DNA of 63,825 nt, filler included, from Fonticula-like sp. SCN 57-25 (taxonomy: Eukaryota), in assembly GCA_001724245.1 (NCBI GenBank). It is 3 parts of 3 records of this genome, joined end to end, with 100 filler letters (N's around TTAATTAATTAA, not from the genome) between each part and the next. Parts side by side here need not be neighbours in the genome. Positions count along the whole stretch, not along the records: positions 23,062 to 45,983 come from MEDX01000073.1; 2 more parts are not named here. One strand, 5' to 3'. Under the pieces are notes generated by a model, which made no database searches, had not been told where the DNA came from, and worked only from the letters and a program-made list of their open reading frames with translations. This document shows, one piece after another, positions 2,037 through 63,825 of the stretch. Within the stretch, counting starts at the first letter, position 1, and the number at the start of each line of letters is the position of its first letter. Both the position numbers and the translations under genes were made by a program.

Positions 2037-3840
2037 ATGAGCGTCCCCGAGTCGCCAAAGACAGATCGCACCGAGGTGCGCACTTTTCACCCATCGCAAT
2101 CGTTTGTTTGACCCCTTTGTTTGGTCCCTTCTTGAGCAGACGACGCGCCGCCCTGTCGCGTCCCCCCCTTCGCGCCCCCCGATGCCCGAGCCCGATCGGC
2201 ACAGCACGCCGTCGCGGCGGCACCTGTTTTCCTCTTCTCCTTCTCTTAGCAAGTCGTTTCTTGGCGGTCTCGCAACGGCGCTGTCGGATCTTGTCAAGAA
2301 GGACGTGCCCGTCGTGTTCAAGCCGCGGCAGCTCATAGACGTTCTGCGGAATCAGACCGCTGTCATGTTCCTCATTGATTTTGCCGAGCAGCGGAATTGC
2401 GACGCGTATGTACACTATTGGCTCATGATTGACTCTTTCCGCGAGGTGAGTCTCCTGCACGGCCGCATGGACGACCTGGCGAGCGACGCGCGCAACATGT
2501 ACCATCGATTTCTCGCCGACGACGCGCCGCAAAAGATTGACATCTCGGACGAGTCGCGCGAGAAGCTAAAAAACCTGCTGGCGACAGGCGCCGCGGCCGA
2601 CGTTGTCTTTGAGTGTCTCTTTATGATTCAAAAGGAAGTTTACGGCGTGATTGACCGCACGCTCTACGCCGCCTTTGAGCAGTCGAGCTTTTACAATGAC
2701 ATGCAAAAGGCGGTCGATCTCTTTGCAAAGGACGAGCCGGGCGCGTCGACGGGGCCGCCACCGCTACCCGCGCGCTCCTTGTCCACCGGCGCGACGCCGT
2801 CAGCGACGTCAGCGGCTCCAGTCTCGTCGCAGTCGTCGGCCGCGTCTGGGAGAGTGAGGCGCGTGCTCGGGCCTAACGCCTCCCTCAGGGACTTTTTGGT
2901 GGACCAGACGGGCCTCTTTTACTTTATGCAGTTTATGGAGAAGCGCCAGGCGGCGCATTGGGTCAATTTTTGGATTACTGTTGAAAGGTACTTTTGCCAC
3001 CATTTTATCCTTTTTGTGCTTGCCCGATTCTTACACTTCCTCGTTCTTAGCTACAGCGACAACGTGAATGCGACGATTGCGGCGGGCGGCGTTGCCGACG
3101 ACGACCTTCTTCGGCGCGATGCCGCGACGCTGTTCTCGCAGTACTTTGCGCTCGACGCGCCGTTCCCGCTGCGCCTCCCGCCCGCCCTCGTTGCGCAGCT
3201 CGCTGCGTACTCGAATGCGACCGACCCCCAGCTCACCTTTGAGGTCGTCCTTCGCGCGCAGAAGCAGGTCTTGGAGGCCATGCGCGCAAAGCATCTTAAA
3301 AAGTTTGTCGAGTCGCCGCTCTACGCGCAGTACCGCCGGGAAGCGGGCGCCCCCGACGCGGGGAGTGGTGCTGCCACGGGCAGTGCAGGCGGTGCCGCGA
3401 CACCATCTCTGGGCAGTGCCGCCGCGGCCGGGCAGAATACGTCGTCGGCGATGCTGCTGCCGCCGGGGGCGCCCGTATCGTCGTTTGCCGCTGCCACGTC
3501 AGCCTCGGGCGGTACTGCCACGTTGGCCGCAGCATCTACAGGGCTGTCGCCGTCGCCGCTGCTGCTCGGCCGGATCGACGACCTGGGCTTTTACGTGAGC
3601 GAGGGCGGCGACGAGGACGGCGGCGTCGACTCGTTCGCAGAGGAAATTGATGTAGTGAGCGGGCGGGCGGCGCCGTCGGGCCTCGCGGCGGTCTTTGGCT
3701 CCGGCGGAGAGGCCGCCGCCGTGGACCACATGGAGGAGGAGCGCCAGGCGAGGGAAATCGCACGGCACATCCTTCAAGAGATCTCGATCGCCACAAATAC
3801 AAGGGACGACTTGGTATACCTGCAGGCGGACGGGTTATAG
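2037..3840 (+). CDS. AKAP10: A-kinase anchoring protein 10 (D-AKAP2)-like: two RGS domains plus C-terminal PKA-docking helix
   Basis: RGS motifs LIDVLRNQTAVMFLIDFAEQ..VHYWL and LRDFLVDQTGLFYFMQFMEK..VNFW. LGRIDDLGFYVSE and EERQAREIARHILQEI resemble the AKAP10 C-terminus. Exon 1 is 2037-2075, intron 2076-2139, second in-frame intron ~2988-3050. Confidence 0.8.
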
Positions 3841-23061: not shown

Positions 23062-23392
23062 GTCGCCGGCCACCACAACCTTCACGGCGGGCGACTCTGA
23101 CGTGCAGACAACAAGATGCTCGCCGGACGGCGACCAAGCAAGGCATGTTACCTCAGTTTCACCTGCAGACACTTCATATAGAGTGGTGAAAGTGCCTGTC
23201 TTCAAGATCCGCAGGGTGCCGTCGGCGCCGCCAATGGCCACACTCGCTCCATCCGGCGCGATGGCGCAGCGCACAACCTGTAACGATTCGTGAGTCTCCG
23301 AGTTGTGAGAGAAAATAAAGTCGCCTTACGTTCATCCCAAGGTCTCCATACGTCTCCGTGCCTTCCGCAAGACGCTCTGGTTTTCGTTGCAT
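23062..23392 (-). CDS. WD40 repeat protein, 5' part (truncated by contig end)
   Basis: MQRKPE..GMN|VVRCAIAPDGASVAIGGADGTLRI..VTCLAWSPSGEHL. Confidence 0.7.
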
Positions 23393-23539
23393 TTTGACTG
23401 CCACAGTGCCAGGAAGTTCAGGAACGAACCAACAATCGAACAACAAAATTTGAAACCAATCGACAAAAAAAACCAAACAATCGATGGAAAGCAATCAAAC
23501 AGTCATCTTTCAGCAGAGCGAGTCTTATCAAGCCCATTA

Positions 23540-24504
23540 ATGTCGCGGTCGCCGTTCATCATTGGCGTCGCGGGCGGTACGGCGTCCGGCAAGACGTCCG
23601 TGTGCCATGCGGTCATGTCGCAGATCTCGTCGTCCTCGGGCGGCGATTCGTCACAGGTGGTCCTCATCAGCATGGACAGTTTCTACCGCGTGCTGTCCGA
23701 GGATGCCCTCGAGCGCGCGTACGCGGGCGAGTACAACTTTGACCACCCGGACGCCTTTGACTGGGACTTGCTGTACGCGGCACTGGACGACATTCGGAGC
23801 GGGCGGCCGACGCTTATCCCGACGTACTGCTTTGTGACGCACAGCCGCCTCGAGACAACGACCCTGGTCAGCGCGCCGTCCGTCGTCCTCATCGAGGGGC
23901 TACTGATCCTCTTTGACAAGTACGAACGCGTTATTTTGACTATTTGTCAAGTCTTTTAGGGCTTTTTTGTGAGTTTTATGTAATTCTTTGTTGTTTTTTA
24001 AGTATGTTTTCATGTTTGGAATGCCTGTGCTGACCGTCAATCTGCAGGCGGATCCGCGACATGCTCTCGATGGCCATCTTTACCGACGAAGACTCTGACA
24101 CGCGGCTCGCCCGCCGCAGTACGCCCTATTCCCTTTTTCTTGCTCTGCTGATCTCCCGCTCGCAGCCAAGCGCGACCTGACCGAACGCGGCCGCGACGTC
24201 GCCTCCGTCATCAAGCAGTACCTCGCCTTTGTCAAGCCCGCCTTTGACGAGTACATTTTCCCAACAAAGAAATATGCTGATGTCATTCTTCCGCGCGGAA
24301 AGGAGAACAATGGTGCGCCACCTGGCCGCTTTTCTTTCCTTCTCTGACCCCTTTGCAGTGGCGATCGACATCATCGTGCAGCACATTGACGACGTCCTAA
24401 AGGAGCGCGCTGGCCCGCGCAAGGCCGTCGTCGACCCCGTGGCAATGCTCGCGCGCGTCGGCGGCAGCGTCAAGCAGCTCGAGTACGCCGAGATCTCGCA
24501 GTAG
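23540..24504 (+). CDS. UCK: Uridine-cytidine kinase
   Basis: [17 protein letters not shown]-loop, [32 protein letters not shown]; 3 introns. Confidence 0.95.
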
Positions 24505-24725
24505 CAGTGGCCATTTCGTGTGTAATATGTAATACTAGTCGTGTTTATTTGGAAATGCGAGCGCCCAAGTCGCCCATATTGGCCCAATTGACGAAACAAA
24601 AAAAAGTCTGAAGTCGACCTTTCACAGCACAAAACAAACGAAAACGCAAAGCCGGCGGGCCTATTCGATGAAACAACGCAAAAGAAAGGAAAAGAAAAAC
24701 AAACCCAGGGACAAGCCAAAAGGGC

Positions 24726-26462
24726 TCAGTCGAGCACGAGCGGGTTGAGGTGCGCGTCAAAGTCCTCGCCGTTGGTGGGCGCGTCGGGCGGATTGTCATC
24801 GGCCATCATGTCATATCTGACGCTCACGCCGCCCTTTACAAAGTAGACTATAATACGCAGTGTCAGCAACAGCGGAAAAGCAAAATAGTATAAGCGCACC
24901 TCTGTTGTCGATGGTGAACGCCGAGTCGACGCCCTTTGGCATGAGCTCGCCCAGCACCTTCCAGCCCTCCTTGATGAGCCGCGGGTACCCCGGGTCCTGG
25001 CAGTTGCGCGCCAGGTCAAACGCCGCGTAGCGCTCGCCGCTAAAGAAAAAGATTTTCTTGTTGCGCCAGTTGAAGCACGCGTCGATGCGCGTGAACGACA
25101 GGCCCGGCCAGCTGACGTCATCATCGATGCGCTTCGGGTAGCCGGGCAGCGAGTGGTCGGCGCACACGTCGTACTTTACAAACTGCGAGCCGGAGAAGAA
25201 GCAGACGTGCTCGTTGGGCAGGTGGCAGGCGGCGTCGATGCCGCTCGGAAAGTTGCCGGGCCAGTTGCCGAGCGTGCGCGGGTAGCCGGTGTCGGGAAGG
25301 CGGCGCTGGACGTCAAAGCGGCGGTAAAAGGCGCCGCAAAAGAGGTACAGCTTGCCGGTGAACTGGTTCAGGAGGAACGCCTTGGCGCCGCCAAAGAGGC
25401 GCATCAGGACCTGCGTCTGGCGGAGGTCGTCGAGCGAAACGCCGCGCTTCGTGATGCCGACCTTGATGCGCTCGAGCACGTCAGAGTCGACAGAGATCGA
25501 GCGGTTCTCGCAGATGGCATAGTCGATCTGAGAGTCAACGTCGAGAATCTCCTTGTTGAGCGCCTTGACGGTCGCCTGAAGGTTCGAAATGTAGTCGTAC
25601 GCGCACTCGAGAATCTGATTGCGGAAGGCTGAAAACAGAAAAACATGTCAGAAAAAAGAAGAAGAAAACGAAAAACCGTACGGCGCTTGGGAGTCAGACG
25701 CTCGATGCACTCGGGGACGACCTCGGCCAGGCGGTGAAGGTGCATGTCGACCTTGGTGCGGCAGCGGCGCTTGATGTCGGCGCTGCGCGTTATTTCGTCG
25801 CTCTTGGCGGCGCCGCGCTTGCGGACAACCACCGACGAAGAGGAGGAAGACGAAGACGCAGGCGGCGGCGACGGCGACTGCGGAGCAGGCACAATATCGG
25901 GCGCCCCAAAGGCGATGTCACGACGCACGTGGGACCGCTTCGGAATAGGCCTGATGGGCATCGTGTGGTTGGATGACGACGAGGGCATCGGCTCGAGCTC
26001 GATGCCGAGGGTCGATCCGACCGGCAAGTCAAACATGCCCGACGCGTGGCCGGGCACGAAGGAAGGCAGCGGGGGAAGCACAACGTGGTTGCTGGCGCCG
26101 TGAATGGCCGGGGCGTACATGGCCGCAGTCATGGAGCCGCTGCTGTACGCGCCAGGATGACCCGATACATTCACGCCGGCCGGGGCAAAGTGCCCCCCCG
26201 CAAAATGGACGGGGCCGTTGTTGTGGCCCCCTTGGTAGACAAAAGTCGGCCAGTTGTCGTCGTCAGACGGCGTCAGCGACGCGCTGTGCGTTTCGGGCGA
26301 CGTGGAGATGTCATTTGGGGAGAGAAAAAGGGAAGGCGGGGAAGGATGACCGGCGTGGAGGGCCGACGAAGGAAGGGGCCCCGCAGAGCTTGAGGCCGTA
26401 GCCAAGAGGCCCTCCCCCCACTGGTAATCATCAGCAGGGTAATCCCACAAAAAATACGCCAT
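24726..26462 (-). CDS. bHLH-leucine zipper protein fused to a four-bladed hemopexin domain
   Basis: Exons 26462-25682, 25628-24900 and 24847-24726 with GT-AG introns of 53 and 52 nt. bHLH-ZIP: RSADIKRRCRTKVDMHLHRLAEVVP..RPFRNQILECAYDYISNLQATVKALNKEI. Hemopexin repeats carry IDA/VDS, FFSG and GYP..WPG motifs. Confidence 0.85.
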
Positions 26463-26954
26463 CGCTGCGCCACTGAGCAGAAAACAAGCACACCCAGGCA
26501 GGGAAAACTCTTTTCCTAAACTCTTTCAGGCGCTGCGCTTGCTTCCGTTGGCGCCAGCTGCTCTCCACCCCGACGCCGACGTGACCAGCGCGAGAAACTT
26601 GGTTCTGCTCCGTTTTCACGAGCAATTTGGTCGGGGCGCGCTGATTGGCTCGATTGGTCGTGCCGTTATCGATCACTTGACCACATTCGATCAAACGTGC
26701 ACCATACGCACAGCTGATTGGTCGACCTATCTTCGTGCCCGAATCCGGGGTCGATTCCACGAATTCAGGGCATTTCGGCAGCCATCAACATGTTAACAAG
26801 GTGCATTATTATCACTGGTACGGTGGCAAATACCATACAAAACATACGCGGACACTACGGCCCAAATAAACAAACGCCTGTTCCTACACTCAAACTCGCC
26901 GCAAAACAACAAAAGAGGTATCAAAAGATGCGATAAAACATGAGAAAAAGAAGT

Positions 26955-28819: not shown

Positions 28820-30814
28820 CTAGTGAGAGTTGAGGTACGCGACGAGCTGGTCAACAAGATCGCCCTTGCGCGCCATTGGCTTGACGCGCACCCCCTGCAG
28901 AAACTCTTTAATGACGGGCACGGTCAACTTGCCCAGCTGCACCAAAACAGTCAGTAAAATAAACATAACAAAAAAAGGCGCACTGTTCCCGCCGCGTTCA
29001 TCTTTTTAAGACTCTCAAGCGAAATTTCCTCATTTTCCTCCTTGACCTTCTTTGCCGGCGCCGCCGCCTCGTCGCCCGCCGCGCGCTTTGCCGGCCTCCT
29101 CGCCGCCCCCCCCTTTGCGGTCGCCGACAGCTGCACGTACCCGTCCGGAAACACGGCCTTTTTAATATCCGCGAGCTCGCCGCCAACGCGCTTGAGCATC
29201 GCGTCGACCTTTGGCAGCGTGTGGTCGGCAAAGTCCTCTGGCACGTCCTGGTTGAGCGCGAGCGCCTGCAGGTTGGCATAGTGCCGCTTGAGCACCGGGT
29301 TTTCATAATCACTCGGCGAAAAGTCTTTCAGCTCGAGCTTTTCCACGACACGTCTTGCGCGGTCAACAAGCTCAGTTGGCGCGCGAACGACTTCCTCGGG
29401 CTTGGCGAGCTTGCGCAGGTCGTCTGAAAAAGGCAGGAAAACAAGGTGGAATCCCGGCGGCGCGACCTGCACGCCGTCCGCGTCGAACCGCTCCTGCTGC
29501 GGGATGAGCGCAACAAAGCGCGGCGCCGAGTTGCTGCGCGGCACAAAGCGCATGATAGCGACCTTGTCCTGAGCGCCGAGCCGCGCGAGCAGGGCGTGAA
29601 AGACGACCGAGCTGCCGCTCACGTCGCCGTCGTTCGGGTACACAAAGAGCGCATGCTTGAGCGCGTGCTTGCGCTTCAGCGCGCTGCGAGGCTTGAAGCC
29701 CATGAGGAAGAGGCCGGGTGCGCCATAGTCGCGCGCCTGCTCGAGCTCCTCGCGGTCAAAGACAACTTTTTCGCCGCCAAAAACGTAGTACGACTTCATG
29801 TCCTTGACCGACACGACCTCGCCGACGTCCGTGACGTACCGCGTGCTCGGGCGGACCTCTTCGTTTTGGCGCGAGTCGAGCCACACGTAGCCGCCGCGCT
29901 TGGCTTCGGAAATCATGTTGTACAGCCGCACGCCGATTTCCATGGTGCCCGTGAGGTGCATCGAGAGGCGGAGCATCGTGCGCTTCTTGTACTCTTTGCG
30001 GCGGACGCGCTCCATGAGCTGCTCAAAGTGTTCGGCGGCGGTGGGAAAGCGCGAAGAAGCGTCGTCGTCGTCGACGCGCACAATGTCAATGAAAAAGGTT
30101 TCAAAGTTGAAGCCAGAGCCGGGCTTGCTGATGCTGAAAAGCTCGACTTCGATGCCGAGATCGGCGAGATCCTTGGCGCGCGTCTTGGCGAGATCGCGCG
30201 CAACGGCGTCGTTGCGAAGAGGATCGTCTTCGTTTGTAAAGAGAAAGACGCGCTTGCTGCCGACCTTGACGGCGCTGTTGCCAAAGATCATCGAGGCGAC
30301 CCACAGGACGTTGCCAATGTTGGGCGCCACGTTCGGCTTGAGATGACCGCACAGCTGCACGATGCTCGTGCGGCCCGCGATAATGTCCTCAAGCTCAAGA
30401 ATGCGCTCGGCAGAGGGAACGTCAAGCTCTTGCAGAACGTAAATGTTGTCGAACCCAGAAACGTTCCGCTTCTTGTCCGTCGCGTACAGCATGATGCCAA
30501 GCAGATCGCTGTCGCTCGAGATGATCTTGTCCTGAAGCATGCTCGATGCGCAGCGGAGCGCCAGGGCAAAGGGCGTGTCCGTCTCGCCGGGCTGCTTGAC
30601 AAACATGTCTGCGCTGCAGTCAATCGCAAACAGGACGCTGTCCTTGTTAAGCCACCGAGACTACCGAGCGCGTCAGAAGAATTCACACAGCTAACCACCA
30701 TACCTCAACATCATCGGGCACGTCGTCCAACTCCTCCTCGTGCTCATCCTCCTCGCCCGTGCCTCCCCACGACGACGCGCCGGACGCTCCCCACGACCCC
30801 CACGACGACGACAT
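28820..30814 (-). CDS. XRCC6: Ku70 (vWA, Ku core, C-terminal SAP)
   Basis: DSVLFAIDCS, KRVFLFTNEDDP, LFLMGFKP, PPGFHLVFLPFSDDLR, YENPVLKRHYANLQALAL; SAP exon LGKLTVPVIKEFL. Confidence 0.95.
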
Positions 30815-39933: not shown

Positions 39934-42900
39934 ATGGGCGATCGCGGCCTGGTCACCTGGGTTAATGACCAGCTGCACAGCCTCGTCGGCTACTCTGAGC
40001 GTCAGACGGTCGATTTTGTATTAGCCTTGTGTATGTTTTACTCATTTGGCTTAAAATTTTTGTCCTATTTTTGCTTACGCGTGCGTGCTAGCCAAGCGGT
40101 CCACGAGCTCGTCGGCCCTCTACAATGAGCTGACGACGGCGTCATTCCCGGCGACACCGCAAGTGCGCGCCTTTGCCGAGGCGCTTTACAGCCGCGTCCC
40201 TCACCCCGTACGTCATTTATTACATTACGCTCTAATTGCTTACCGAATCCCTTCCCTTTCCTTCTGTTCCCATTCCCATCCCAGGCGCCACCCATGGCGC
40301 GTTCGGAGCCGTCAGCATCGACCTCGGCAGCGCGCCGTGACCTTAAGGAAGCGGCGTCGCTTGCCAAGAAGAACGCGTCGTACGCGCTGCTGTCGGATGA
40401 CGAGGAGCAGGCGAGCGCCATCTCAAAGTCTGGCGCGCTGGAGCGGGAGAAGAAGAAGCGGCATCGGGATCGCGAGTCCAGGAAGGGCGATGCGTGGGAG
40501 GACGACGGGACGTCCGCAGTGAAGCGGAAAAAAGACGGTTCGTCATTTTTTGCTTATTTTGTTGTTTTACCGATCTTTCCATTCCTAACACTTGCCCAGA
40601 ATCCGACTCTGCCGCCGATGCCGACGACACTGACCGCCTCGCCGACCTGGCCGCCAAGCAAGCCTTTGAAGAGCGCCTCGCCGCGCGCGACTCTTCCAAA
40701 ACGCGCCAGCTCGGCGCCGACAAGGTCACCCTCGACGCCGCCGCCGAAGCGCAGCGCCGCCGCGACATTGCCGCCTCGCTCGCCTCCGACGACAAGCGCC
40801 TGCTCCTCTCCGCCCGCGAGCGCTCGCGCTACGACTACCTCGCCAAGCGCGAAGAGCAAAAACTGGGCGAGCTCGAAGTATCGCTCGCGCGCGAAGAAAA
40901 GCTCTTTCGCGACGAAAAACTGACCGAGCGCGAGCGCGTCCGCCTCGACGCGCAGCGCACCGTTCTGCGGCTCGCCAAGGAGCGCAAGGGCATGTCGGCG
41001 GACGTCGGCGGGTACCAGATGCCCGCCGCCTACGAGGACGAGCGCGGCATGCTCGACAGGAAAAAGGCAGAGCAAGTGCTGACTGCGCGCTTGGGCGGCG
41101 ACGACGCGTCGGCGTTTGTGAGCGAGCAGGACGAGTGGGAGGCGCAGCAGATCCGGACGGCGCAGGGGAGGGAGGCGAGGGGGGGTAAGCAGAGGGGGGA
41201 CGAGTACGAGTACTTGATCGAGGAGGAGGTCGAGTTTGTGCTTGAATCGACGGTGGGGGGGACCATTAAGGATGAGGAGGAGGAGGGGAAGGGGAAGGAG
41301 GTGCATGTCAGTGCGGCGGAGAAAAAGGGTACGTTAAAAATGGATAGGAAATGGGAAGAGGAAGATGGGTATATATGGAGTATGGTGTGTATGATATGGT
41401 ATGACATGGTGAGTATGATAAGATGAACATGGCATGGTGAGTATAGTGAGTATGGTGAGTATAATGAGTATGGTCAGTATGACATGGTGAGTATGGTAGT
41501 ATGGACATGATATGGTAAGTATGACATGATGAGTATGACATGGTGAGTATAGTGAGTATGGTATAAATGATACTTTTTGGTCTATTCGTATAGATTATTG
41601 ATACTTACCATTCCTTTTCCATACCTTCCCATACACTTTCCTATTTCTCTTCTAACACCTTTCTCCAGCCATGAGCATTCAAGAAGTCCGCCGCTCTCTC
41701 CCCACCTATGCCTTCCGCACCCCCCTCCTCGACGCCATCGAGCAGCACCAAGTCATCATTGTTGTCGGCGAGACCGGCTCTGGCAAGACCACTCAGGTCC
41801 CGCAGTACCTCCACGAGGCCGGCTACACAAAGCGCGGCAAGATTGGCTGCACGCAGCCGCGCCGCGTGGCCGCCATGAGTGTCGCCGCGCGCGTCGCGGA
41901 AGAAATGGGCGTCAAGCTCGGGTACGAAGTCGGGTATTCGATCCGGTTCGAGGACTGTACGAGTGAAGGGACGATATTAAAGTACATGACGGATGGAATG
42001 CTGCTGCGCGAGTTTTTGACAGAGCCGGATTTAAAGTCGTATTCGGCGCTGATTATTGATGAGGCGCACGAGAGGACGCTGCATACGGATATTTTGTTTG
42101 GGCTGGTGAAGGATATTGCGAGGTTTAGGCCGGATTTGAAGCTGCTGATTTCGAGTGCGACAATGGATGCGGAAAAGTTTAGCAAGTTTTTTGATGGGGC
42201 GCCAATCTTTAACAGTACGTTGAGGGATTTTGGGAGAGAGGGGAGAAAGGGAAAAGAGTGGTGCTTTAGGTGAAATTTGTGCTTTTGGATGGTTTTTGGA
42301 TGGTTTTTGGTACTTTTATGATACTTTCTGTTACTTTTATGTTACTTTTATGCTGCTTTTATGATACTTTTATGGTACTTTTATGATACTTTTAGGTTAC
42401 TTTCATGTTACTTTTATGTTACTTTCATGTTACTATTATGTTACTTTATGTTACTTTTTTCTCCTTTCCCATATTCACTCACTCTTTCTCCAGTCCCCGG
42501 CCGCCGCTTCCCCGTTGACATCTTTTACACAAAGGCCCCCGAAGCCGACTACCTCGACGCCGCCGTCGTCACCACCCTCCAAATCCACCTCACTCAGCCC
42601 CGCGGCGACATCCTCGTCTTCATGACCGGCCAGGAAGAGATCGAAACGTGCACTGAAATCCTCCAGCAGCGCACGAAAGCGCTCGGCTCCAAAATCTCCG
42701 AGCTCATCATCTGCCCAATCTACTCGACGCTGCCGCCCGACCTGCAGGCGAAAATCTTTGAGCCGACGCCGCCCGGCGCGCGCAAAGTGATTCTGGCGAC
42801 CAACATTGCCGAGACGAGCATCACGATCGACGGCATCACGTACGTGATCGACCCCGGCTTTGTGAAGCAGAACAGCTACAACCCGCGGTCGGGCATGGAG

Positions 42901-43887
42901 TCGCTGATCGTGACGCCGTGCTCGCGCGCGTCGGTCAACCAGCGCGCGGGGCGAGCGGGCCGCGTCGGGCCGGGAAAGTGCTTTAGGCTGTTTACGGCGT
43001 GGGCGTACCACAATGAGCTGGAAGACAATACGATTCCAGAGATTCAGCGCACGAATCTGGGCAATGTCGTGCTCATGCTAAAGAGCCTGGGCATCAATGA
43101 CCTTATCCACTTTGACTTTTTGGACCCGCCGCCGGCAGAGACGCTCATCCGCGCGCTCGAGCAGCTGTACGCGCTCGGCTCGCTCAATGACCGCGGCGAG
43201 CTGACAAAGCTCGGGCGGCGAATGGCGGAATTCCCGCTCGACCCGATGCTGTCAAAGACAATTTTGGCGAGCGAGACGTACAAGTGCAGCGAGGAAGTCA
43301 TTTCGATATGCGCAATGCTGAGTGTGAATAATGCCATCTTTTACCGGCCAAAGGACAAGGCAGTGCATGCTGATAATGCACGTGATACGTTGGTGCGGCC
43401 GGGCGGCGACCACATGACGCTGCTCAACGTGTGGAACACGTGGGTCGAGACGAATTACAGCATCCAGTGGTGCTTTGAAAACTTTATCCAGCACAGGTCG
43501 ATGAAGCGCGCACGTGACGTCCGCGAGCAGCTGCTTGGGCTGCTCGACCGCGTCGAAGTCGAGCTCACGTCAAACCCGACCGACACTGTTGGCATTCGAA
43601 AGGCGTTCACGGCGGGCTTTTTCTACCACGCGGCGCGGATGAGCCGCTCGGGCGAGTCGTACAAGACGATTAAGACGCAGCAGTCGGTCATGGTGCACCC
43701 GTCGAGCGCAGTGTACAAGGACAAGCCGAGGTGGGTGATTTACTTTGAGCTCGTGTTTACGTCAAAGGAGTTTATGAGGCAGGTGTGCGAGATAGAGTCG
43801 GCGTGGCTGCTGGAGGTGGCGCCGCATTACTACAAGGCAAAGGACGTGGAGGACCAGTCAAAGAAAAAGATGCCAAAGGCGAGGTGA
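39934..43887 (+). CDS. DHX16: Pre-mRNA splicing DEAH helicase Prp2/DHX16
   Basis: N-terminus [54 protein letters not shown] and C-terminal KKMPK typical of DHX16. Confidence 0.95.
41369..41572. repeat. Intronic low-complexity repeat (ATGGTGAGT/ATGAC-based)
   Basis: Many degenerate atggtgagtat/atgacatg units inside a DHX16 intron. Confidence 0.75.
42287..42460. repeat. Intronic ~11-bp degenerate repeat (GTTACTTTTAT)
   Basis: Repeated tacttttatg units inside a DHX16 intron. Confidence 0.8.
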
Positions 43888-52910: not shown

Positions 52911-53498
52911 TTACCACGTGGTCCCGCCGAAAGCGTCGCTTGCCGCGTGGTAGTTTAGGCTGTCTGGGTTTATCGCAAACGCCTCGAGCACCTGCTTGAG
53001 CGTCACCATGCCCGCGCTCTTTGCGCGCAGCTCCTCTGCGGCCACCTGCGCGACGTGCTGCCACTTTGAGCACAAGTCCATGAGCTTGTTCATCTCGTCC
53101 ACGTCAAGGCACTTTTCAATGAGCTGCATCCTGCGCACGCGCTCGTTGCTCTCGCGGATCGCGCCCTTGAGCTCGACGCGGCGGATCTGCAGAGCGGCCA
53201 GCTCGGGGTCCTGCACCTTGCCCTTGCTCGTCGACTGAAGCGCGGTGCCGCGGCGGAGCGGGCTACGCAGCGCCGAGTGCGGGGATGAGGTTGGCGCGGC
53301 GGGCGCGGATGCCGGCGACGATGACGAAACAGAAGGCGACTCGGAAGGAGACGCGAGAGCGCGCTGCTGCGAAGGCGACGGCGGCAGGCCCATGCGGCGC
53401 CGACGCATGCCTGGCGACGGCTACAAATAAAAAATCCAAGCAGTTAGAGAGGGAAAACACGCAGCGCATCATCGCCCATCCCGGTCGCGCACCAGCAT
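52911..53498 (-). CDS. SFR1: Swi5-dependent recombination factor Sfr1/Mei5
   Basis: KLMDLCSKWQHVAQVAAEEL..TLKQVLEAFAINPDSLNY..DAF fits the Mei5/Sfr1 C-terminal domain. The start is uncertain (6-nt first exon inferred; alternative ATG at 53408). Confidence 0.8.
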
Positions 53499-53580
53499 TT
53501 CGCGCGCACTGCTTGCACACTCTGATTGGCCCGCCCTATTCATCCTTTCCCGCCAACGCCACAGCCCTGCCACAATCGTG

Positions 53581-55629
53581 ATGGCGGTGCGCCTGCTCTG
53601 CCGCCCGTCGCTGGGCGCATCGGCGCGGTCGGCCCTGTCGCCGGCCCGCCTCTTCTCCGCCTCGATCGTCCCGAAGCAGGCCCCCTCCGCGTCCTTTACC
53701 TCGATCTCTGGCGTCCTTTCGCTCGCCGTCCAGCGCGCGCGCTTTCTCCCGCTCGATCCCGCGCTCATCCGCGTGGCGCATGCCGAGGAAGCCGCCCGCC
53801 GCTCCGGCGCCCTCGGCCCCCGCCTCGCCGTCAACGCGCACGGCCTCCAGCCGCGTGGTCCTGTGCGCGACTTGACCTTTTGGGAGCTCTGCCGCGAGCT
53901 TGTCGCTCTGCTTGATTGGTTCTGGCTTGGCGCGACGGTCGCCGCTGCCGTGGCGACCGCGGCGGTGGGCGTCGCTCTCCCTCGCGCGACCGGCCAGCTG
54001 GTGAATGCGCTGACGCGCCTCGTCAAGGGCGAGAGCGCCGAGCTGACCTCTGCTGCCCTTCGGATGGCCTTTCTCTCCCTCTCCAACGCGGTGCTCACCT
54101 TTGCGTACATTTCGAGCGTCTCGATCGTCGGCGAGCGCCTTGCCGAGCGCCTCCGCACGCGCCTCTTCTCCTCTCTCCTCTCCCAAGACATTTACTTTTT
54201 CGACTCGCACAAGACGGGCGATCTTCTCTCCCGCCTCACGAGCGATGTCCAAGAGTTCAAGCACAGCGTCAAGGGCCTCATTGGCCAGGGCGTCAAGGCC
54301 GTGACGCAGACCGCCGGCGGCCTCGCCTCGATGATGTCGCTCTCCCCCCTCATGACGGGCGCCCTCGTCGTGTCGCTTCCCCTCATCTACGCCGTCGGCT
54401 CCCTCTACGGCTCCTTTTTGCGCCGCGTTTCTGCGCGCGCGCGCTCAGCCGACGCCGAAGCCGCGGGCCACGCGACCGAGTGCCTTCACCACGTGCGCAC
54501 CGTGCGCGCCTTTGCGACCGAGCCGCGCGAGTCTGAGCGCTTTGCCGAGCTGACGGGCGTCGCCGCGCGGCTCCACGAGGCGCAAGGCCTTCACATTGGC
54601 GCCTTCCAGGGCCTCACCAACCTCTCCTTTAGCGGCCTCTTCCTCGGCATCCTCTGGCTCGGCGGCTCGCAGGTGGGCGACGGCCGCCTCGCCGCCGGCG
54701 ACCTCATGAACTTTTTGATGACGACGCAGAGCACGCAAAAGAGCCTTGGCGCGCTCGTCGCGCTGCTCGGCACGGCCGGCAAGGCGATGGGCGCCGGCGC
54801 GCGCGCGCTCGAGTACGCCGCCATGTCGCCGCTCGTCGCGCTGACGGGCGGCGCGACCATCCCTTCCGCGCAGCTGCGCGGCGACATTGTCTTTGACAGC
54901 GTCGACTTTGCGTACCCCTCGCGCCCCGAGCAGCGCGTTCTCAACGGGCTGCAGCTGCGCCTCGCCCCCGGCAAGGTGACCGCCCTCTGCGGCCCGTCCG
55001 GCGGCGGCAAGTCGACCGTCGCTGCTCTCATTGAGCGCTTTTACGAGCCAATCAACGGCGAAATTTCGCTCGACGGTCGCGACATTTCGCGCCTCGACCC
55101 TTCCTGGCTGCGCTCGCAGATCGGCTACATTAGCCAGGAGCCGGCGCTCTTTGGCACGTCGGTGCTCGAAAACATCCGCTACGGTCGGCCGGACGCCACC
55201 GACGAGCAGGTCATTGCTGCTGCGCGGCAGGCCAACGCGCACGACTTTATCAGCGCTTTCCCGGACGGCTACGCGACGCGCGTCGGCGAACGAGGCGTCG
55301 CGCTGAGCGGCGGCCAGCGGCAGCGCATCGCCATCGCGCGCGCTCTCCTAAAGGACCCCAAGATTCTCATCCTCGATGAGGCGACGAGCGCGCTCGACGC
55401 AGAGAGCGAGCGGCTCGTGCAGGCGGCGCTCGACAAGCTCATGAGGGGGAGGACGGTGCTCGTGATTGCGCATAGGCTGTCGACGCTGCATAATGCGGAT
55501 TGTATTGCAGTGATGCACCCGAGGGCAAAGAGGATTATCGAGACGGGGACGCACGCGCAGCTTATGGGGAGTGAGTCGTTTTATAGGAATTTGTATCAGC
55601 AGTGGAAGTCGGAAGATTTTGTCGAGTGA
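53581..55629 (+). CDS. ABCB8: Mitochondrial ABC-B half transporter (ABCB8-like)
   Basis: TMD + NBD: GPSGGGKST, LSGGQRQR, ILDEATSALD. RLTSDVQEFK and GDLMNFL..QSTQKSL favour ABCB8. Intronless. Confidence 0.88.
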   Translation: MAVRLLCRPSLGASARSALSPARLFSASIVPKQAPSASFTSISGVLSLAVQRARFLPLDPALIRVAHAEEAARRSGALGPRLAVNAHGLQPRGPVRDLTFWELCRELVALLDWFWLGATVAAAVATAAVGVALPRATGQLVNALTRLVKGESAELTSAALRMAFLSLSNAVLTFAYISSVSIVGERLAERLRTRLFSSLLSQDIYFFDSHKTGDLLSRLTSDVQEFKHSVKGLIGQGVKAVTQTAGGLASMMSLSPLMTGALVVSLPLIYAVGSLYGSFLRRVSARARSADAEAAGHATECLHHVRTVRAFATEPRESERFAELTGVAARLHEAQGLHIGAFQGLTNLSFSGLFLGILWLGGSQVGDGRLAAGDLMNFLMTTQSTQKSLGALVALLGTAGKAMGAGARALEYAAMSPLVALTGGATIPSAQLRGDIVFDSVDFAYPSRPEQRVLNGLQLRLAPGKVTALCGPSGGGKSTVAALIERFYEPINGEISLDGRDISRLDPSWLRSQIGYISQEPALFGTSVLENIRYGRPDATDEQVIAAARQANAHDFISAFPDGYATRVGERGVALSGGQRQRIAIARALLKDPKILILDEATSALDAESERLVQAALDKLMRGRTVLVIAHRLSTLHNADCIAVMHPRAKRIIETGTHAQLMGSESFYRNLYQQWKSEDFVE

Positions 55630-62289: not shown

Positions 62290-63825
62290 TCATTCAACAA
62301 CACTTTCACTCCCCTGACTCACCCCCTGATTCACCCCCTGATTCACCCCCTGACTCACCCCCTGATTCTGCATCTGCATCTGCTGCTGTTCCCACCTTCG
62401 CCGCCACACGCCCTCTCGACCGCCCGCGGCCGGCTCGCCATCAGCAAAAGATCCGATCGGTAAAAGTGTCGGAACGATGACGTCATCATTGTCCACGTGG
62501 ATGTTGTCCATGTGGTTGTCCACGTGGGTGTGTTGTGGGCGGTGTGCGCCTGGGGCGAGGCTGAAGGGGGCAGTGTCGGCATAGCGGGGGGAAATAAGCG
62601 ACCCTTTCGGGAAAGAAGAGGATTGGTGCACGTGACTTTGTGTCACGTGATTCTGTGTCACGTGATGGTGTCCATAAAAGTGTCCTTGTTGCTGCACATG
62701 TTGACCTTGTCCTTGTTGCAGTACTTGTGTCATATGTTGACCTTGACCTTGTGTCACGTGACCTTGTTGCATTTGATCGAATATGGGACTGATAATTCCA
62801 CCATGAAACACGTCATTATACCTCGGACTCTTCCCATTGGCCGGCGCACTATTCGCCGACAGCGGCGCCGTTGACGCATTCGACGTCGCAGACATTGGCT
62901 GATTATTGCTCTGATTCTGCTGATTGCTCTGATTTTGCATCATTCCACTCATCGGATACGTCCACTGTTGACCAACTTGATTATGATGTTGAATATGAAC
63001 TTGACCTTGATTATGATGTTGAATATGACCTTGATTATGAAGTTGACCTTGATTCATATGACCTTGGTTCATATGACTCACGTGACCTCCACCAATCAAC
63101 ACACTCGGATCCACTTTAGCCGAATCACTTTGCGCCCTCCTCGTCCTACTCCTCCTCTGCCTCCTATGCCTCACCACCCCCTGCCCCTGATTGGCCAATT
63201 CCGCCTCATCAAAATCAAGTCCGTTTAAATCCCACCCACTCTTCACCGCCACTCTTTCCAAATCATCTTTCCATTCATAAAACCTTGCCATATCACGCCG
63301 CGCAAAACACCCACTCAGTATTGATTCCTGAATCAATCTTAATAGGGAAAAAAGTGATTCCGGATCGGGTTCGCCAACAGTGACATAGCAAAGTGCCTTG
63401 AATATCATTCCCAAATACTGCTCACTAAACTCAGCTAGCACCCCACACGTGGCCAACTGATCCTTGTACGTCATCAGCACATCACGAAGCGCATCAACAG
63501 CATCAACAATCTGACCATTCTGTAGCATGTCACGTGACACACTCGTCATCCTGCCACACATGCTCACATTGCACTTTATAGCAAGCAACAACTTTCGACG
63601 TGCCCCTTGTGCTGACACACCAAGTGCTGACAAATCAGAATCATTAAGCTGACTCAGCGCTTTAAGATCAAGATGAGATAGATTGTCTGTGTACTTGTGA
63701 AGGCGAAGGGAGCGAAGCCACCCTGAAGTTGTTCCAGACATATCAAGTGGATCAGCAGAAGAAGAAGAAGAAGTAGTTGGCCACGTGGATGATCGTGGTG
63801 AAGTGGCGGCCAATGGGGAGAGAGG
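62290..63825 (-). CDS. SAMD4: Smaug/SAMD4-like RNA-binding protein (SAM + PHAT-like, Q/H-rich tail); 5' end outside the window
   Basis: [16 protein letters not shown] is the Smaug/Vts1 SAM signature. The following helical region ([24 protein letters not shown]) resembles the PHAT domain. Confidence 0.85.

What the first reader, a model, noticed from the sequence alone, without database searches (positions are those of the whole stretch)
24726..26462. bHLH-zipper transcription factor fused to a hemopexin beta-propeller: candidate new ligand-sensing regulator
Seen: the ORF track splits this gene into three frames. Removing two canonical introns (25681-25629, GTACGG..TTTCAG; 24899-24848, GTGCGC..TATAG) gives one continuous protein. 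It has an acidic/aromatic N-terminus (MAYFLWDYPADDYQW), a P/S-rich linker, a basic patch (RKR), a bHLH (helix 1 ..LHRLAEVVP, helix 2 RNQILECAYDYISNL), a zipper (QATVKALNKEILDV), then four hemopexin blades (KLYLFCG..GYP..WPG; GIDAA..FFSG..GYP..WPG; RIDAC..FFSG..GYP; GVDSA..YFVKG). There is no signal peptide, TM segment or HExxH. Known: hemopexin domains are typical of secreted MMPs, vitronectin and hemopexin, plus stand-alone plant albumin-2 and microbial proteins that bind haem or polyamines. bHLH factors normally sense ligands through PAS domains. I know of no bHLH-hemopexin architecture. Inference: a one-component sensor analogous to bHLH-PAS, responding to haem, polyamine or metal, or using the propeller as a cofactor platform.
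Basis: partly seen in the sequence, partly recalled or inferred. Interest (0 to 1): 0.92.

Follow-up and report, generated by a model that had tools for sequence, protein, structure and literature searches.

The report
HLH-zipper protein with hemopexin propeller
An unidentified single-celled eukaryote carries a spliced gene that joins a helix-loop-helix-zipper dimerisation and DNA-binding-type module to a hemopexin beta-propeller, a combination also found in a second, very different protist and not found described anywhere else.

Summary
Removing the two proposed GT..AG introns (53 and 52 nt, each with a CTGAC branch site) gives one 1632-nt reading frame of 543 aa.

**Hemopexin part: firm.** Pfam Hemopexin E 1.3e-23. 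PDB vitronectin/MMP-2 hemopexin domains E 2e-16. The AF2 model has mean pLDDT 85.6, with blade blocks mostly above 90, and its best Foldseek matches are hemopexin domains.

**HLH-zipper part: likely, not proven.** It has no HMM support. The domain is split by intron 1, and the spliced protein could not be handed to the outside tools. It fits a recalled bHLH pattern that occurs in 0 of 200,000 shuffles. Language-model neighbours are all bHLH clusters, but at lead level only. Its basic region has Lys where E-box binders have Glu.

**New evidence.** An AT-rich eukaryote in metagenome contigs (L002/L003) encodes a collinear orthologue. It has the same phase-1 intron between helix 1 and helix 2, with 49-59% identity in both modules.

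No other protein examined combines HLH with hemopexin. Four paper searches found none.

Ligand sensing is untested. Verdict: a real, conserved and apparently undescribed architecture, interest 0.62.

The parts
25824..26462 (-). Exon 1, residues 1-213: acidic/aromatic N-terminus followed by a Ser/Pro-rich region, probably disordered (candidate activation region)
   Evidence: Composition is S36 P31 A22 G19 of 215 residues, and net charge is -6 in residues 1-60. In single-sequence AF2, residues 4-163 are one continuous stretch below pLDDT 50. The 10-residue block means stay at or below 53 up to residue 220, and there is no secondary structure before residue 219. No homologue was found.
25713..25823 (-). 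Exon 1, residues 214-250: basic patch, atypical basic region (KRRCRTK) and helix 1 ending in V-V-P
   Evidence: AF2 predicts a helix at 219-256 with block pLDDT 83-97. 19 columns are invariant with L003, including all seven of KRRCRTK. The Atlas features of residues 200-260 are nearest to bHLH clusters, score 0.79, a lead only. The A1 profile aligns in register with the ARNT bHLH, E 7.5, not significant.
25629..25681 (-). Intron 1, 53 nt, phase 1, inside the HLH loop
   Evidence: It reads GTACGG...CTGAC...CAG. The orthologue L003 has a 70-nt phase-1 intron at the same codon position.
25510..25626 (-). Exon 2, residues 262-300: helix 2 (starts FRNQIL) running on into a short zipper
   Evidence: AF2 predicts one helix over P0002 residues 2-40. 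Hydrophobic residues fall at 3-4 spacing (positions 6, 9, 13, 16, 20, 23, 27, 30, 34). 17 of 32 columns are invariant with L003.
25372..25506 (-). Exon 2, residues 302-346: linker with two predicted helices
   Evidence: AF2 predicts helices at P0002 48-60 and 65-78, with pLDDT 65-76. Identity with L003 is 17 of 53.
24798..25371 (-). Residues 347-520: four-blade hemopexin beta-propeller, interrupted by intron 2 in blade 4
   Evidence: Pfam PF00045 gives E 1.3e-23, 83.1 bits against a cut-off of 21.3. PDB vitronectin gives E 2.1e-16. AF2 block pLDDT is 87-97 over P0002 residues 81-240, mostly above 90. Foldseek's top hits are hemopexin domains, E 3e-10. Blade 4 in the orthologue scores Pfam E 0.0029.
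24848..24899 (-). Intron 2, 52 nt, phase 1
   Evidence: It reads GTGCGC...CTGAC...TAG. The orthologue's coding sequence is continuous across this point and aligns without a gap.
24726..24797 (-). Residues 521-543: acidic C-terminal tail, plus the stop codon
   Evidence: Net charge is -6. Identity with L003 is 7 of 26.

Best explanation
This is a real three-exon gene of an unidentified eukaryote. It encodes a 543-aa intracellular protein made of five parts:
1. a disordered acidic/aromatic and Ser/Pro-rich N-terminal half;
2. a divergent basic-helix-loop-helix whose helix 2 runs on into a short zipper;
3. a two-helix linker;
4. a four-blade hemopexin beta-propeller;
5. an acidic tail.

The most likely working model is a dimeric HLH-zipper transcription regulator. 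The HLH-zipper pairs two chains and places the conserved KRRCRTK basic regions on DNA. The target is probably not a canonical E-box, because Lys replaces the E-box Glu. The N-terminal half would act as the activation region. The two hemopexin propellers of the dimer would act as the regulatory module, by binding either a small ligand or a partner protein.

**Shown:** the gene structure, the hemopexin domain, conservation of the whole architecture in a second eukaryote, and the absence of secretion or membrane signals.

**Inferred:** the HLH fold, dimerisation, DNA binding, nuclear location, and any regulatory role for the propeller.
For: **Gene model**
- One open frame of 543 aa appears after removing two canonical short introns.
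- Coding-like sequence upstream of the first Met of the exon 2 frame can only be expressed if it is spliced to exon 1.

**Orthologue**
- Metagenome contigs L002/L003 (27-29% GC against 57.5% for L001, the window's own stretch) carry the same order of modules. Their six exons all have GT..AG introns.
- Identity to the window protein is 18/37 in basic-H1-loop, 17/31 in H2-zipper, 17/53 in the linker and 102/172 in hemopexin.
- The intron in the HLH loop sits at the same position and phase in both.

**Hemopexin**
- Pfam E 1.3e-23. PDB phmmer E 2e-16 to 3e-15 for vitronectin and gelatinase A.
- AF2 mean pLDDT 85.6. Foldseek ranks 1-30 are all hemopexin-fold chains.

**HLH**
- A two-helix pattern written from the recalled bHLH consensus matches 2 of 2 orthologues.
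- The same pattern matches 0 of 337 other stored proteins (208,311 residues), nothing else in the six-frame window, and 0 of 200,000 shuffles.
- The Atlas rows shown for residues 200-260 are all bHLH clusters (PF00010, INO2/INO4 types), score 0.79. All ten of the ten best hits with a family share one family or clan.
- AF2 gives a confident helix at 219-256 and one at P0002 2-40.
- The heptad spacing continues from helix 2.

**Intracellular location**
- No signal peptide, TM segment or HExxH.
- No Cys lies in or after blade 4, so the blade 1-blade 4 disulfide of secreted hemopexin domains cannot form. The disulfide rule is recalled, not tested here.
Against: - No HMM or significant sequence match supports the HLH. 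Pfam gives no HLH hit at E up to 10 on either half, in the window or in L003.
- PDB searches with the halves give only ARNT at E 7.5 for helix 1, and nothing bHLH for helix 2.
- The Atlas score of 0.79 is below the level the tool treats as more than a lead. The second Atlas query (helix 2 to linker) gave no usable hit.
- The pattern test used a pattern written after seeing the sequence.
- The basic region lacks the Glu that contacts CA in E-boxes (Lys instead). It has acidic residues just upstream, so DNA binding is not assured.
- There are no RNA data, no localisation data, and no ligand or partner evidence.
- Blade 4 is weak by HMM: none for window exon 3, and 18 bits for L003.
Confidence: 0.6

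Rival explanations
1. It is a non-DNA-binding dimeric hemopexin protein. The HLH-zipper-like helices serve only to dimerise, or to trap other HLH factors in the manner of Id/Emc-type HLH proteins. The protein acts in the cytosol or nucleus as a ligand carrier or scavenger (haem, polyamine, metal) or as an inhibitor of other bHLH factors, not as a sequence-specific regulator.
For: - The basic region is atypical: Lys stands at the E-box Glu position, with acidic and Ser residues just upstream.
- There is no HLH HMM hit.
- Stand-alone plant hemopexin-fold proteins bind spermine or a haem analogue (passages of PMC6934871). These plant proteins match the window domain at E 2e-5 to 3e-4.
Against: - The seven-residue basic motif KRRCRTK is invariant between orthologues that share only about 40% identity overall. 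That argues for a selected contact surface, either DNA or importin.
- It holds 5 basic residues in 7.
- The long disordered acidic/aromatic N-terminal half fits an activation region better than a carrier protein.
Confidence: 0.2
2. The fusion is a gene-model artefact. The HLH-containing upstream ORF and the hemopexin ORF would be separate genes, with the hemopexin protein starting at the Met just before blade 1, or the locus would be an unexpressed pseudogene.
For: - No RNA evidence could be obtained.
- The only database entry for this locus is a prokaryote-style ORF call of 222 aa that covers only the hemopexin part (P0071).
- A Met lies 12 residues before the hemopexin match.
Against: - Helix 2, the zipper and the linker lie in the hemopexin exon's frame, upstream of that Met, with no start codon of their own. 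They are conserved in L003 at 17/31 and 17/53.
- The continuation of exon 1's frame past the donor site is Arg/Ser/Thr-rich, as off-frame sequence would be.
- In L003, helix 2 is a 98-nt internal exon without a Met, flanked by GT..AG. It can only be expressed as part of the larger transcript.
- Both frames are intact with a single stop.
Confidence: 0.06
3. The helical region is not an HLH at all. It would be an unrelated coiled-coil or helical oligomerisation module that happens to fit the consensus, making the protein a hemopexin-domain scaffold of unknown type.
For: - There is no significant HMM or PDB sequence match for either helix.
- Single-sequence AF2 draws one continuous helix through the supposed helix 1 and the start of the loop.
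Against: - The fit to both helix signatures, with a loop of the right length, occurs in 0 of 200,000 shuffles and 0 of 337 unrelated proteins.
- A Pro conserved in both orthologues ends helix 1.
- All Atlas neighbours shown are bHLH families.
- The one PDB hit that is a bHLH aligns in the correct register.
Confidence: 0.14

Closest known systems
bHLH-leucine-zipper transcription factors (Myc/Max, USF, MITF/TFE, SREBP types; Pfam PF00010)
   Same: - The order is basic patch, helix 1 ending before a Pro, a short loop, then helix 2 with the characteristic spacing, continuing as a heptad zipper.
- A disordered activation-like region lies N-terminal to the HLH.
   Different: - No HMM support was obtained.
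- Lys stands at the E-box Glu position and the conserved basic motif is KRRCRTK.
- The zipper is short, about four heptads.
- The C-terminal hemopexin propeller was not seen in any bHLH protein here.
bHLH-PAS factors (ARNT, AhR, HIF, CLOCK)
   Same: - The logic would be the same: an N-terminal bHLH followed in the same chain by a folded domain that could take a ligand or partner.
- ARNT is the only solved bHLH that the helix 1 profile touched, in register at E 7.5.
   Different: - No PAS domain is present, as Pfam finds only Hemopexin on exon 2.
- The sensor-like domain is a beta-propeller, not an alpha/beta PAS fold.
- No ligand is known.
Fungal INO2/INO4-type bHLH (PF23179, PF23181)
   Same: These are the nearest clusters by language-model features for residues 200-260, with scores 0.77-0.79.
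   Different: - The scores are below the tool's level for more than a lead.
- Pfam gives no hit to these families on the exon halves.
- These fungal proteins are small and carry no propeller, according to the cluster rows.
Single-domain hemopexin-fold proteins of plants (LS24, CP4, chickpea and Dolichos albumins)
   Same: - They share the four-blade hemopexin fold without a protease partner.
- Sequence E is 2e-5 to 3e-4. Foldseek gives E 2e-8 to 7e-7 for CP4 (3oyo), the chickpea albumin (3v6n, 3s18), the Dolichos albumin (6ix1) and LS24 (3lp9).
- Ligand binding (spermine, a haem analogue) is reported for this group (passages of PMC6934871).
   Different: Those are stand-alone seed proteins with no HLH, no zipper and no long disordered N-terminal half.
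Hemopexin domains of MMPs and vitronectin, and bacterial hemopexin-repeat proteins
   Same: - The best solved-structure matches are vitronectin, MMP-2 and MMP-14.
- The best database matches at 36-49% identity are bacterial or metagenomic hemopexin-repeat proteins.
   Different: - Those are secreted or surface proteins fused to peptidase, CAP, kinase or other domains.
- Here there is no signal peptide and no Cys pair that could tie blade 1 to blade 4.
- In a quick tree, the two protist domains form their own clade (SH-aLRT 99) apart from vertebrate MMPs, inside an unresolved bacterial/unlabelled group.

Membership tests
Hemopexin repeat (Pfam PF00045) | Profile match above Pfam's gathering score | tested here: met
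   The match is 83.1 bits against a cut-off of 21.3, E 1.3e-23, with three stretches on exon 2. L003 exons give E 2.4e-17, 9.3e-8 and 0.0029.
Hemopexin repeat (Pfam PF00045) | Four-bladed beta-propeller fold | tested here: met
   The AF2 model of exon 2 shows three full blades and the start of a fourth, with block pLDDT 87-97. Foldseek ranks 1-30 are hemopexin-fold chains. The rest of blade 4 lies in exon 3 and could not be modelled together with exon 2. Its L003 counterpart scores 18 bits.
Secreted hemopexin domains (MMP, vitronectin, hemopexin) | Signal peptide, and a disulfide tying blade 1 to blade 4 (rule recalled) | tested here: not met
   The N-terminus is not hydrophobic and there is no TM segment. 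Cys residues are at 234, 252, 269, 300, 358, 395, 403, 416, 445 and 470, with none in or after blade 4.
bHLH (Pfam PF00010) | Profile match to the HLH model | tested here: inconclusive
   There is no hit at E up to 10 on helix 1 or helix 2 pieces of the window or L003. The domain is split by an intron in both organisms, and the spliced protein could not be given to the Pfam tool.
bHLH (Pfam PF00010) | Helix 1 - loop - helix 2 signature positions (recalled consensus) | tested here: met
   The pattern matches both orthologues. It matches 0 of 337 other proteins and 0 of 200,000 shuffles. The pattern was written after seeing the sequence.
bHLH, E-box-binding classes | Glu at the CA-contacting position of the basic region (recalled) | tested here: not met
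   In the register given by the ARNT alignment, the position is Lys in both orthologues. The Arg four residues later is kept.
bHLH | Dimeric four-helix bundle | not testable with these tools
   No model of the contiguous spliced domain, alone or as a dimer, could be computed here.
bHLH-zipper subclass | Heptad repeat contiguous with helix 2 | tested here: met
   Hydrophobic positions fall at 6, 9, 13, 16, 20, 23, 27, 30 and 34 of exon 2. AF2 gives a single helix over residues 2-40.
bHLH-PAS | PAS domain(s) after the bHLH | tested here: not met
   Pfam finds only Hemopexin downstream of helix 2.

The most novel reading that the evidence does not exclude
This would be a previously unrecognised class of one-component eukaryotic transcription regulators. 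In it, a hemopexin beta-propeller takes the place of the PAS domain as the signal-receiving module of a dimeric HLH-zipper factor. It would couple binding of a small molecule such as haem, a polyamine or a metal ion directly to promoter occupancy. The propeller may have been recruited from a bacterial-type hemopexin repeat. The family would be old enough to be shared by protists with 29% and 57% GC genomes.
Probability: 0.2. Interest if true: 0.82.

Novelty: new variant of a known kind. Interest (0 to 1): 0.62.

Why it matters
Both parts are textbook domains, but they belong to different worlds. bHLH factors are nuclear. Hemopexin propellers are known almost only from secreted proteins and seed albumins.

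A conserved fusion of the two would show that the hemopexin fold has an intracellular, probably regulatory use. It would add a new sensor or docking domain to the small list of domains attached to bHLH factors (PAS, Orange, zipper).

It also gives a concrete experiment: ask what the propeller binds and whether that binding switches DNA binding. The answer would bear on how hemopexin domains recognise ligands in general.

The finding also shows that unannotated protist contigs in metagenomes hide domain architectures that prokaryote-style gene calling breaks into fragments.

Tried and rejected
- **RNA evidence:** no RNA holder was listed for window 24500-26700.
- **Own genome and earlier notes:** no whole genome is held for the window.
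- **HLH by HMM:** Pfam on exon 1, on exon 2, and on short pieces of the window and L003 gave no HLH hit.
- **HLH by solved-structure sequences:** P0001, a 60-aa helix 2 piece, and the two-sequence profiles A1 and A2 gave nothing significant. ARNT came up at E 7.5 only.
- **Atlas:** the query on P0002 residues 1-75 gave no usable hit.
- **Complex prediction:** helix 1 pieces x2 with helix 2 pieces x2 scored 0.23 and 0.21 against a mark of 0.34. That is no verdict, and it was not used as evidence either way.
- **Local profile libraries:** none exists in the script box.
- **Homologue search with exon 1:** none of 5695 candidates scored E <= 0.001.
- **Scans for more HLH exons:**
  - Genome contigs with A1 gave one locus, L004 (a Bryobacteraceae MAG). 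It shares only the pattern-selected ten residues, with no HLH continuation and no hemopexin, so it was rejected as chance.
  - Genome contigs with A2 gave none. Viral contigs with A1 gave none.
- **Rfam on the window:** no match.
- **Unspliced readings:**
  - A 353-aa unspliced exon 1 ORF was rejected, because its tail is off-frame-like Arg/Ser/Thr sequence.
  - A separate hemopexin gene starting at the Met before blade 1 was rejected, because the conserved helix 2-zipper-linker lies upstream of that Met in the same frame with no start codon.
- **Origin of the propeller:** the quick tree leaves the protist clade in an unresolved star with bacterial and unlabelled rows. The rows were chosen as best hits to the window. 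No donor can be named.
- **Taxon:** the best named Ku70 matches are only 41-46% identical (cnidarians, echinoderms, Balamuthia, Capsaspora, Mucoromycota). The organism stays unplaced.
- **Supplements:** paper supplements were not consulted.
Full report
**1. The observation**

The region was read on the minus strand and the frames were listed.

The proposed exons were joined in a script:
- exon 1, 26462-25682 (781 nt);
- exon 2, 25628-24900 (729 nt);
- exon 3, 24847-24726 (122 nt).

This gives 1632 nt, or 543 aa, with a single terminal stop. Intron 1 (53 nt, GTACGG...CAG) and intron 2 (52 nt, GTGCGC...TAG) each carry a CTGAC branch-site-like motif near the 3' end. Both are phase 1. An in-frame stop lies 66 nt upstream of the ATG.

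There is no HExxH. The highest 19-residue hydrophobicity mean is 0.92. The N-terminus is not hydrophobic, and the window holds no second copy.

Two facts in the window alone argue that the exons belong together:
- The exon 2 frame opens just inside the intron and has no Met for its first 73 residues, yet those residues look like real protein.
- Exon 1's frame past the donor site turns into Arg/Ser/Thr-rich sequence, as off-frame sequence would.

**2. The hemopexin half**

- Pfam gives Hemopexin at E 1.3e-23 (83.1 bits, cut-off 21.3) on exon 2.
- phmmer against PDB sequences gives 18 hits. They are led by vitronectin (2.1e-16) and gelatinase A (about 3e-15), and include plant hemopexin-fold albumins.
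- An AF2 model of exon 2, made with an alignment of 116 sequences, has mean pLDDT 85.6. It shows one helix at residues 2-40, two helices at 48-60 and 65-78, and then blades with block pLDDT 87-97.
- Foldseek ranks 1-30 are all hemopexin-fold chains, best E 2.9e-10.
- The fourth blade is split by intron 2, and window exon 3 alone gives no Pfam hit. The orthologue's unsplit fourth blade scores 18 bits, E 0.0029.
- Cys residues are at 234, 252, 269, 300, 358, 395, 403, 416, 445 and 470. None lies in or after blade 4, so the blade 1-blade 4 disulfide of secreted hemopexin domains (a recalled rule) cannot form. That fits an intracellular protein.

**3. The HLH half**

This is the weak point. Intron 1 lies in the loop, so neither exon carries a whole domain.

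On the halves, the results against the HLH reading are:
- Pfam gives no HLH hit at E up to 10, in the window or in the orthologue.
- phmmer of exon 1 or of a 60-aa helix 2 piece against PDB gives nothing relevant.
- The helix 2 profile finds no bHLH.
- The second Atlas query (helix 2 to linker) gave no usable hit.

The results in its favour are:
- A two-sequence profile of the helix 1 exon touches the ARNT bHLH in the correct register, but at E 7.5.
- ESM-Atlas features of residues 200-260 have bHLH clusters as every row shown (HLH, INO2 and INO4 types), at 0.77-0.79. The tool rates that as a lead only.
- Single-sequence AF2 of exon 1 gives block pLDDT means at or below 53 up to residue 220, with residues 4-163 continuously below 50, and then a confident helix at 219-256.
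- Hydrophobic residues of exon 2 follow a 3-4 spacing from position 6 to 34, within the single helix.
- A pattern written from the recalled bHLH consensus (helix 1 ending in Pro, loop of 5-30 residues, helix 2) matches both orthologues.
- That pattern matches 0 of 337 other stored proteins (208,311 residues), only this gene in the six-frame window, and 0 of 200,000 shuffles. Helix 1 alone matched 140 shuffles and helix 2 alone matched 2. The pattern was written after the sequence was seen, so the count is indicative only.

In the ARNT register, the E-box-contacting Glu position is Lys in both orthologues. The seven residues KRRCRTK are invariant between them.

**4. Relatives**

*Protein searches*
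- A word-based search with exon 2 among longer proteins gave 67 hits. All carry hemopexin and 0 of 67 list PF00010.
- Exon 1 gave no hit among 5695 candidates.
- A full HMMER scan of 1.84 billion representatives gave 2095 hits at E <= 0.001.
- Of the 150 listed, only P0071 reaches into the query before residue 76. P0071 is a 222-aa prokaryote-style ORF call of this very locus.
- phmmer of spliced residues 205-346 against all 338 stored proteins found only P0071, at 5.3e-17. The next best was E 1.2.

*Domain partners.* A Pfam scan was run on A3 (116 sequences): P0002 plus 115 of the 148 other stored representatives. The 33 longer than 646 aa were left out to stay under the size limit.
- All 116 sequences hit Hemopexin.
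- The partners were CAP, several peptidases, a kinase and others.
- None of the 25 of 57 families shown is HLH.

*The metagenome scan was decisive.* Of 121 pattern matches, 3 encode a relative:
- L001 is identical to window 23349-26078.
- L002 is identical to part of L003. At 27-29% GC, against 57.5% for L001, they come from a very different eukaryote.
- tblastn of the spliced protein on L003 finds the helix 1 exon (57% identity), the helix 2 exon and the hemopexin exons, in order.

A partial L003 model has six exons, all with GT..AG introns, and gives a clean 336-aa frame ending in a stop. Its identities to the window protein are:

| Segment | Identity |
|---|---|
| basic-H1-loop | 18/37 |
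| H2-zipper | 17/31 |
| linker | 17/53 |
| hemopexin | 102/172 |

The intron in the HLH loop is at the same codon and phase in both. The window's intron 2 is absent from L003, and three L003 introns are absent from the window. Each organism's continuous sequence therefore confirms the other's splice junctions.

Short fragments P0186, P0221 and P0220 cover blades 1-2; P0186 is 65% identical to the window. P0186 and P0221 break off where L003 has an intron. They point to further lineages, but their contigs are too short to show an HLH.

**5. The organisms**

The window is eukaryotic, with Ku70, RGS, a DEAH helicase, an ABC half-transporter and WD40 proteins. The best named Ku70 matches are only 41-46% identical and are spread over cnidarians, echinoderms, Balamuthia, Capsaspora and Mucoromycota. 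The host is therefore an unplaced protist without a close annotated relative.

In a quick tree of hemopexin domains, the two protist domains form a clade (SH-aLRT 99). That clade sits apart from the vertebrate MMP domains (98), inside an unresolved group of bacterial and unlabelled sequences. The rows were chosen as best hits to the window, so no donor can be inferred.

**6. Mechanism**

The best-supported reading is a dimeric HLH-zipper regulator with three working parts:
- The disordered acidic/aromatic, Ser/Pro-rich N-terminal half would serve as the activation region.
- The conserved atypical basic motif would contact DNA, probably not a canonical E-box.
- The hemopexin propeller would be a regulatory module that binds a small ligand or a partner protein.

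Ligand binding is plausible by analogy with plant hemopexin-fold proteins, for which spermine and a haem analogue are reported (passages of PMC6934871). Nothing here tests it. The gene structure, the propeller, the conservation and the lack of secretion signals are shown. The HLH fold, dimerisation, DNA binding, nuclear location and the role of the propeller are inferred.

**7. Novelty**

Four full-text searches returned no paper describing such a fusion:
- hemopexin + bHLH + domain architecture: 2 papers, both unrelated;
- hemopexin + helix-loop-helix + unicellular: 2 papers, both unrelated;
- hemopexin-like, intracellular, beta-propeller, transcription factor, fused: 8 of 315 papers listed, none relevant by title or abstract;
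- hemopexin fold + spermine: 3 papers.

Only listings and abstracts were seen, apart from passages of PMC6934871. Supplements were closed. Together with the protein searches above, this supports a new variant of a known kind: a bHLH-type factor with an unprecedented C-terminal domain, conserved in at least two distant protists.

**8. Verdict**

My confidence estimates are:
- about 0.9 that the fusion is real;
- about 0.75 that the helical module is an HLH;
- 0.6 for the full working model;
- about 0.2 for the ligand-sensor reading.

Interest is 0.62.

Noticed in passing
window 24099-24504 (+): Two ORF pieces with uridine-kinase-like sequence end at 24504, convergent with the HLH-hemopexin gene. 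The 3'-3' spacer is only 221 nt. An AATAAA lies on the minus strand about 170 nt after the stop. The uridine-kinase name is my reading of the sequence and comes from no search.
   Followed up: no
window 28951-30660 (-): A Ku70 gene (Ku_N, Ku, Ku_C) lies in one 569-aa open frame. Its best named relatives are only 41-46% identical and are scattered over animals, Amoebozoa, Filasterea and Mucoromycota, so the host has no close annotated relative.
   Followed up: partly
window 2041-3840 (+), 42322-43887 (+), 53431-55629 (+), 62290-63825 (-): Other genes of the window are an RGS-domain protein, a DEAH-box helicase C-terminal half, an ABC half-transporter and a SAM-domain protein. They are ordinary eukaryotic neighbours with no evident link to the finding.
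   Followed up: no
L003 5121-6938 (+): About 730 bases downstream of the orthologue lies a 605-aa intronless ORF. It has a long Glu/Arg/Leu-rich repetitive helical half and a C-terminal Peptidase_C101 (OTULIN-like) domain, E 3.6e-20.
   Followed up: no
P0186, P0221 (112 aa), P0220 (64 aa); short ENA/JGI contigs: These fragments cover hemopexin blades 1-2; P0186 is 65% identical to the window. P0186 and P0221 end in junk exactly where L003 has an intron. They are probably exons of the same gene family in one or two further eukaryotes. Their contigs (about 0.65-1 kb) could not be fetched.
   Followed up: partly
window 24798-25371 and L003 3669-4391: The protist hemopexin domains group with bacterial and metagenomic hemopexin repeats rather than with vertebrate MMP domains, in a quick and poorly resolved tree. 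Named best hits are bacterial. A bacterial origin of the propeller is possible but was not tested properly.
   Followed up: partly
P0071 (database ORF call of window 24811-25476): The public protein collection holds this locus only as a 222-aa prokaryote-style ORF. It starts at an internal GTG and runs into intron 2, and it is seen on 7 contigs. Gene calling of this kind hides the fusion from protein-level searches.
   Followed up: yes
L004 2416-2532: A Bryobacteraceae MAG contig shares a ten-residue string with the basic region but nothing else. It is a chance match picked out by the search pattern.
   Followed up: yes
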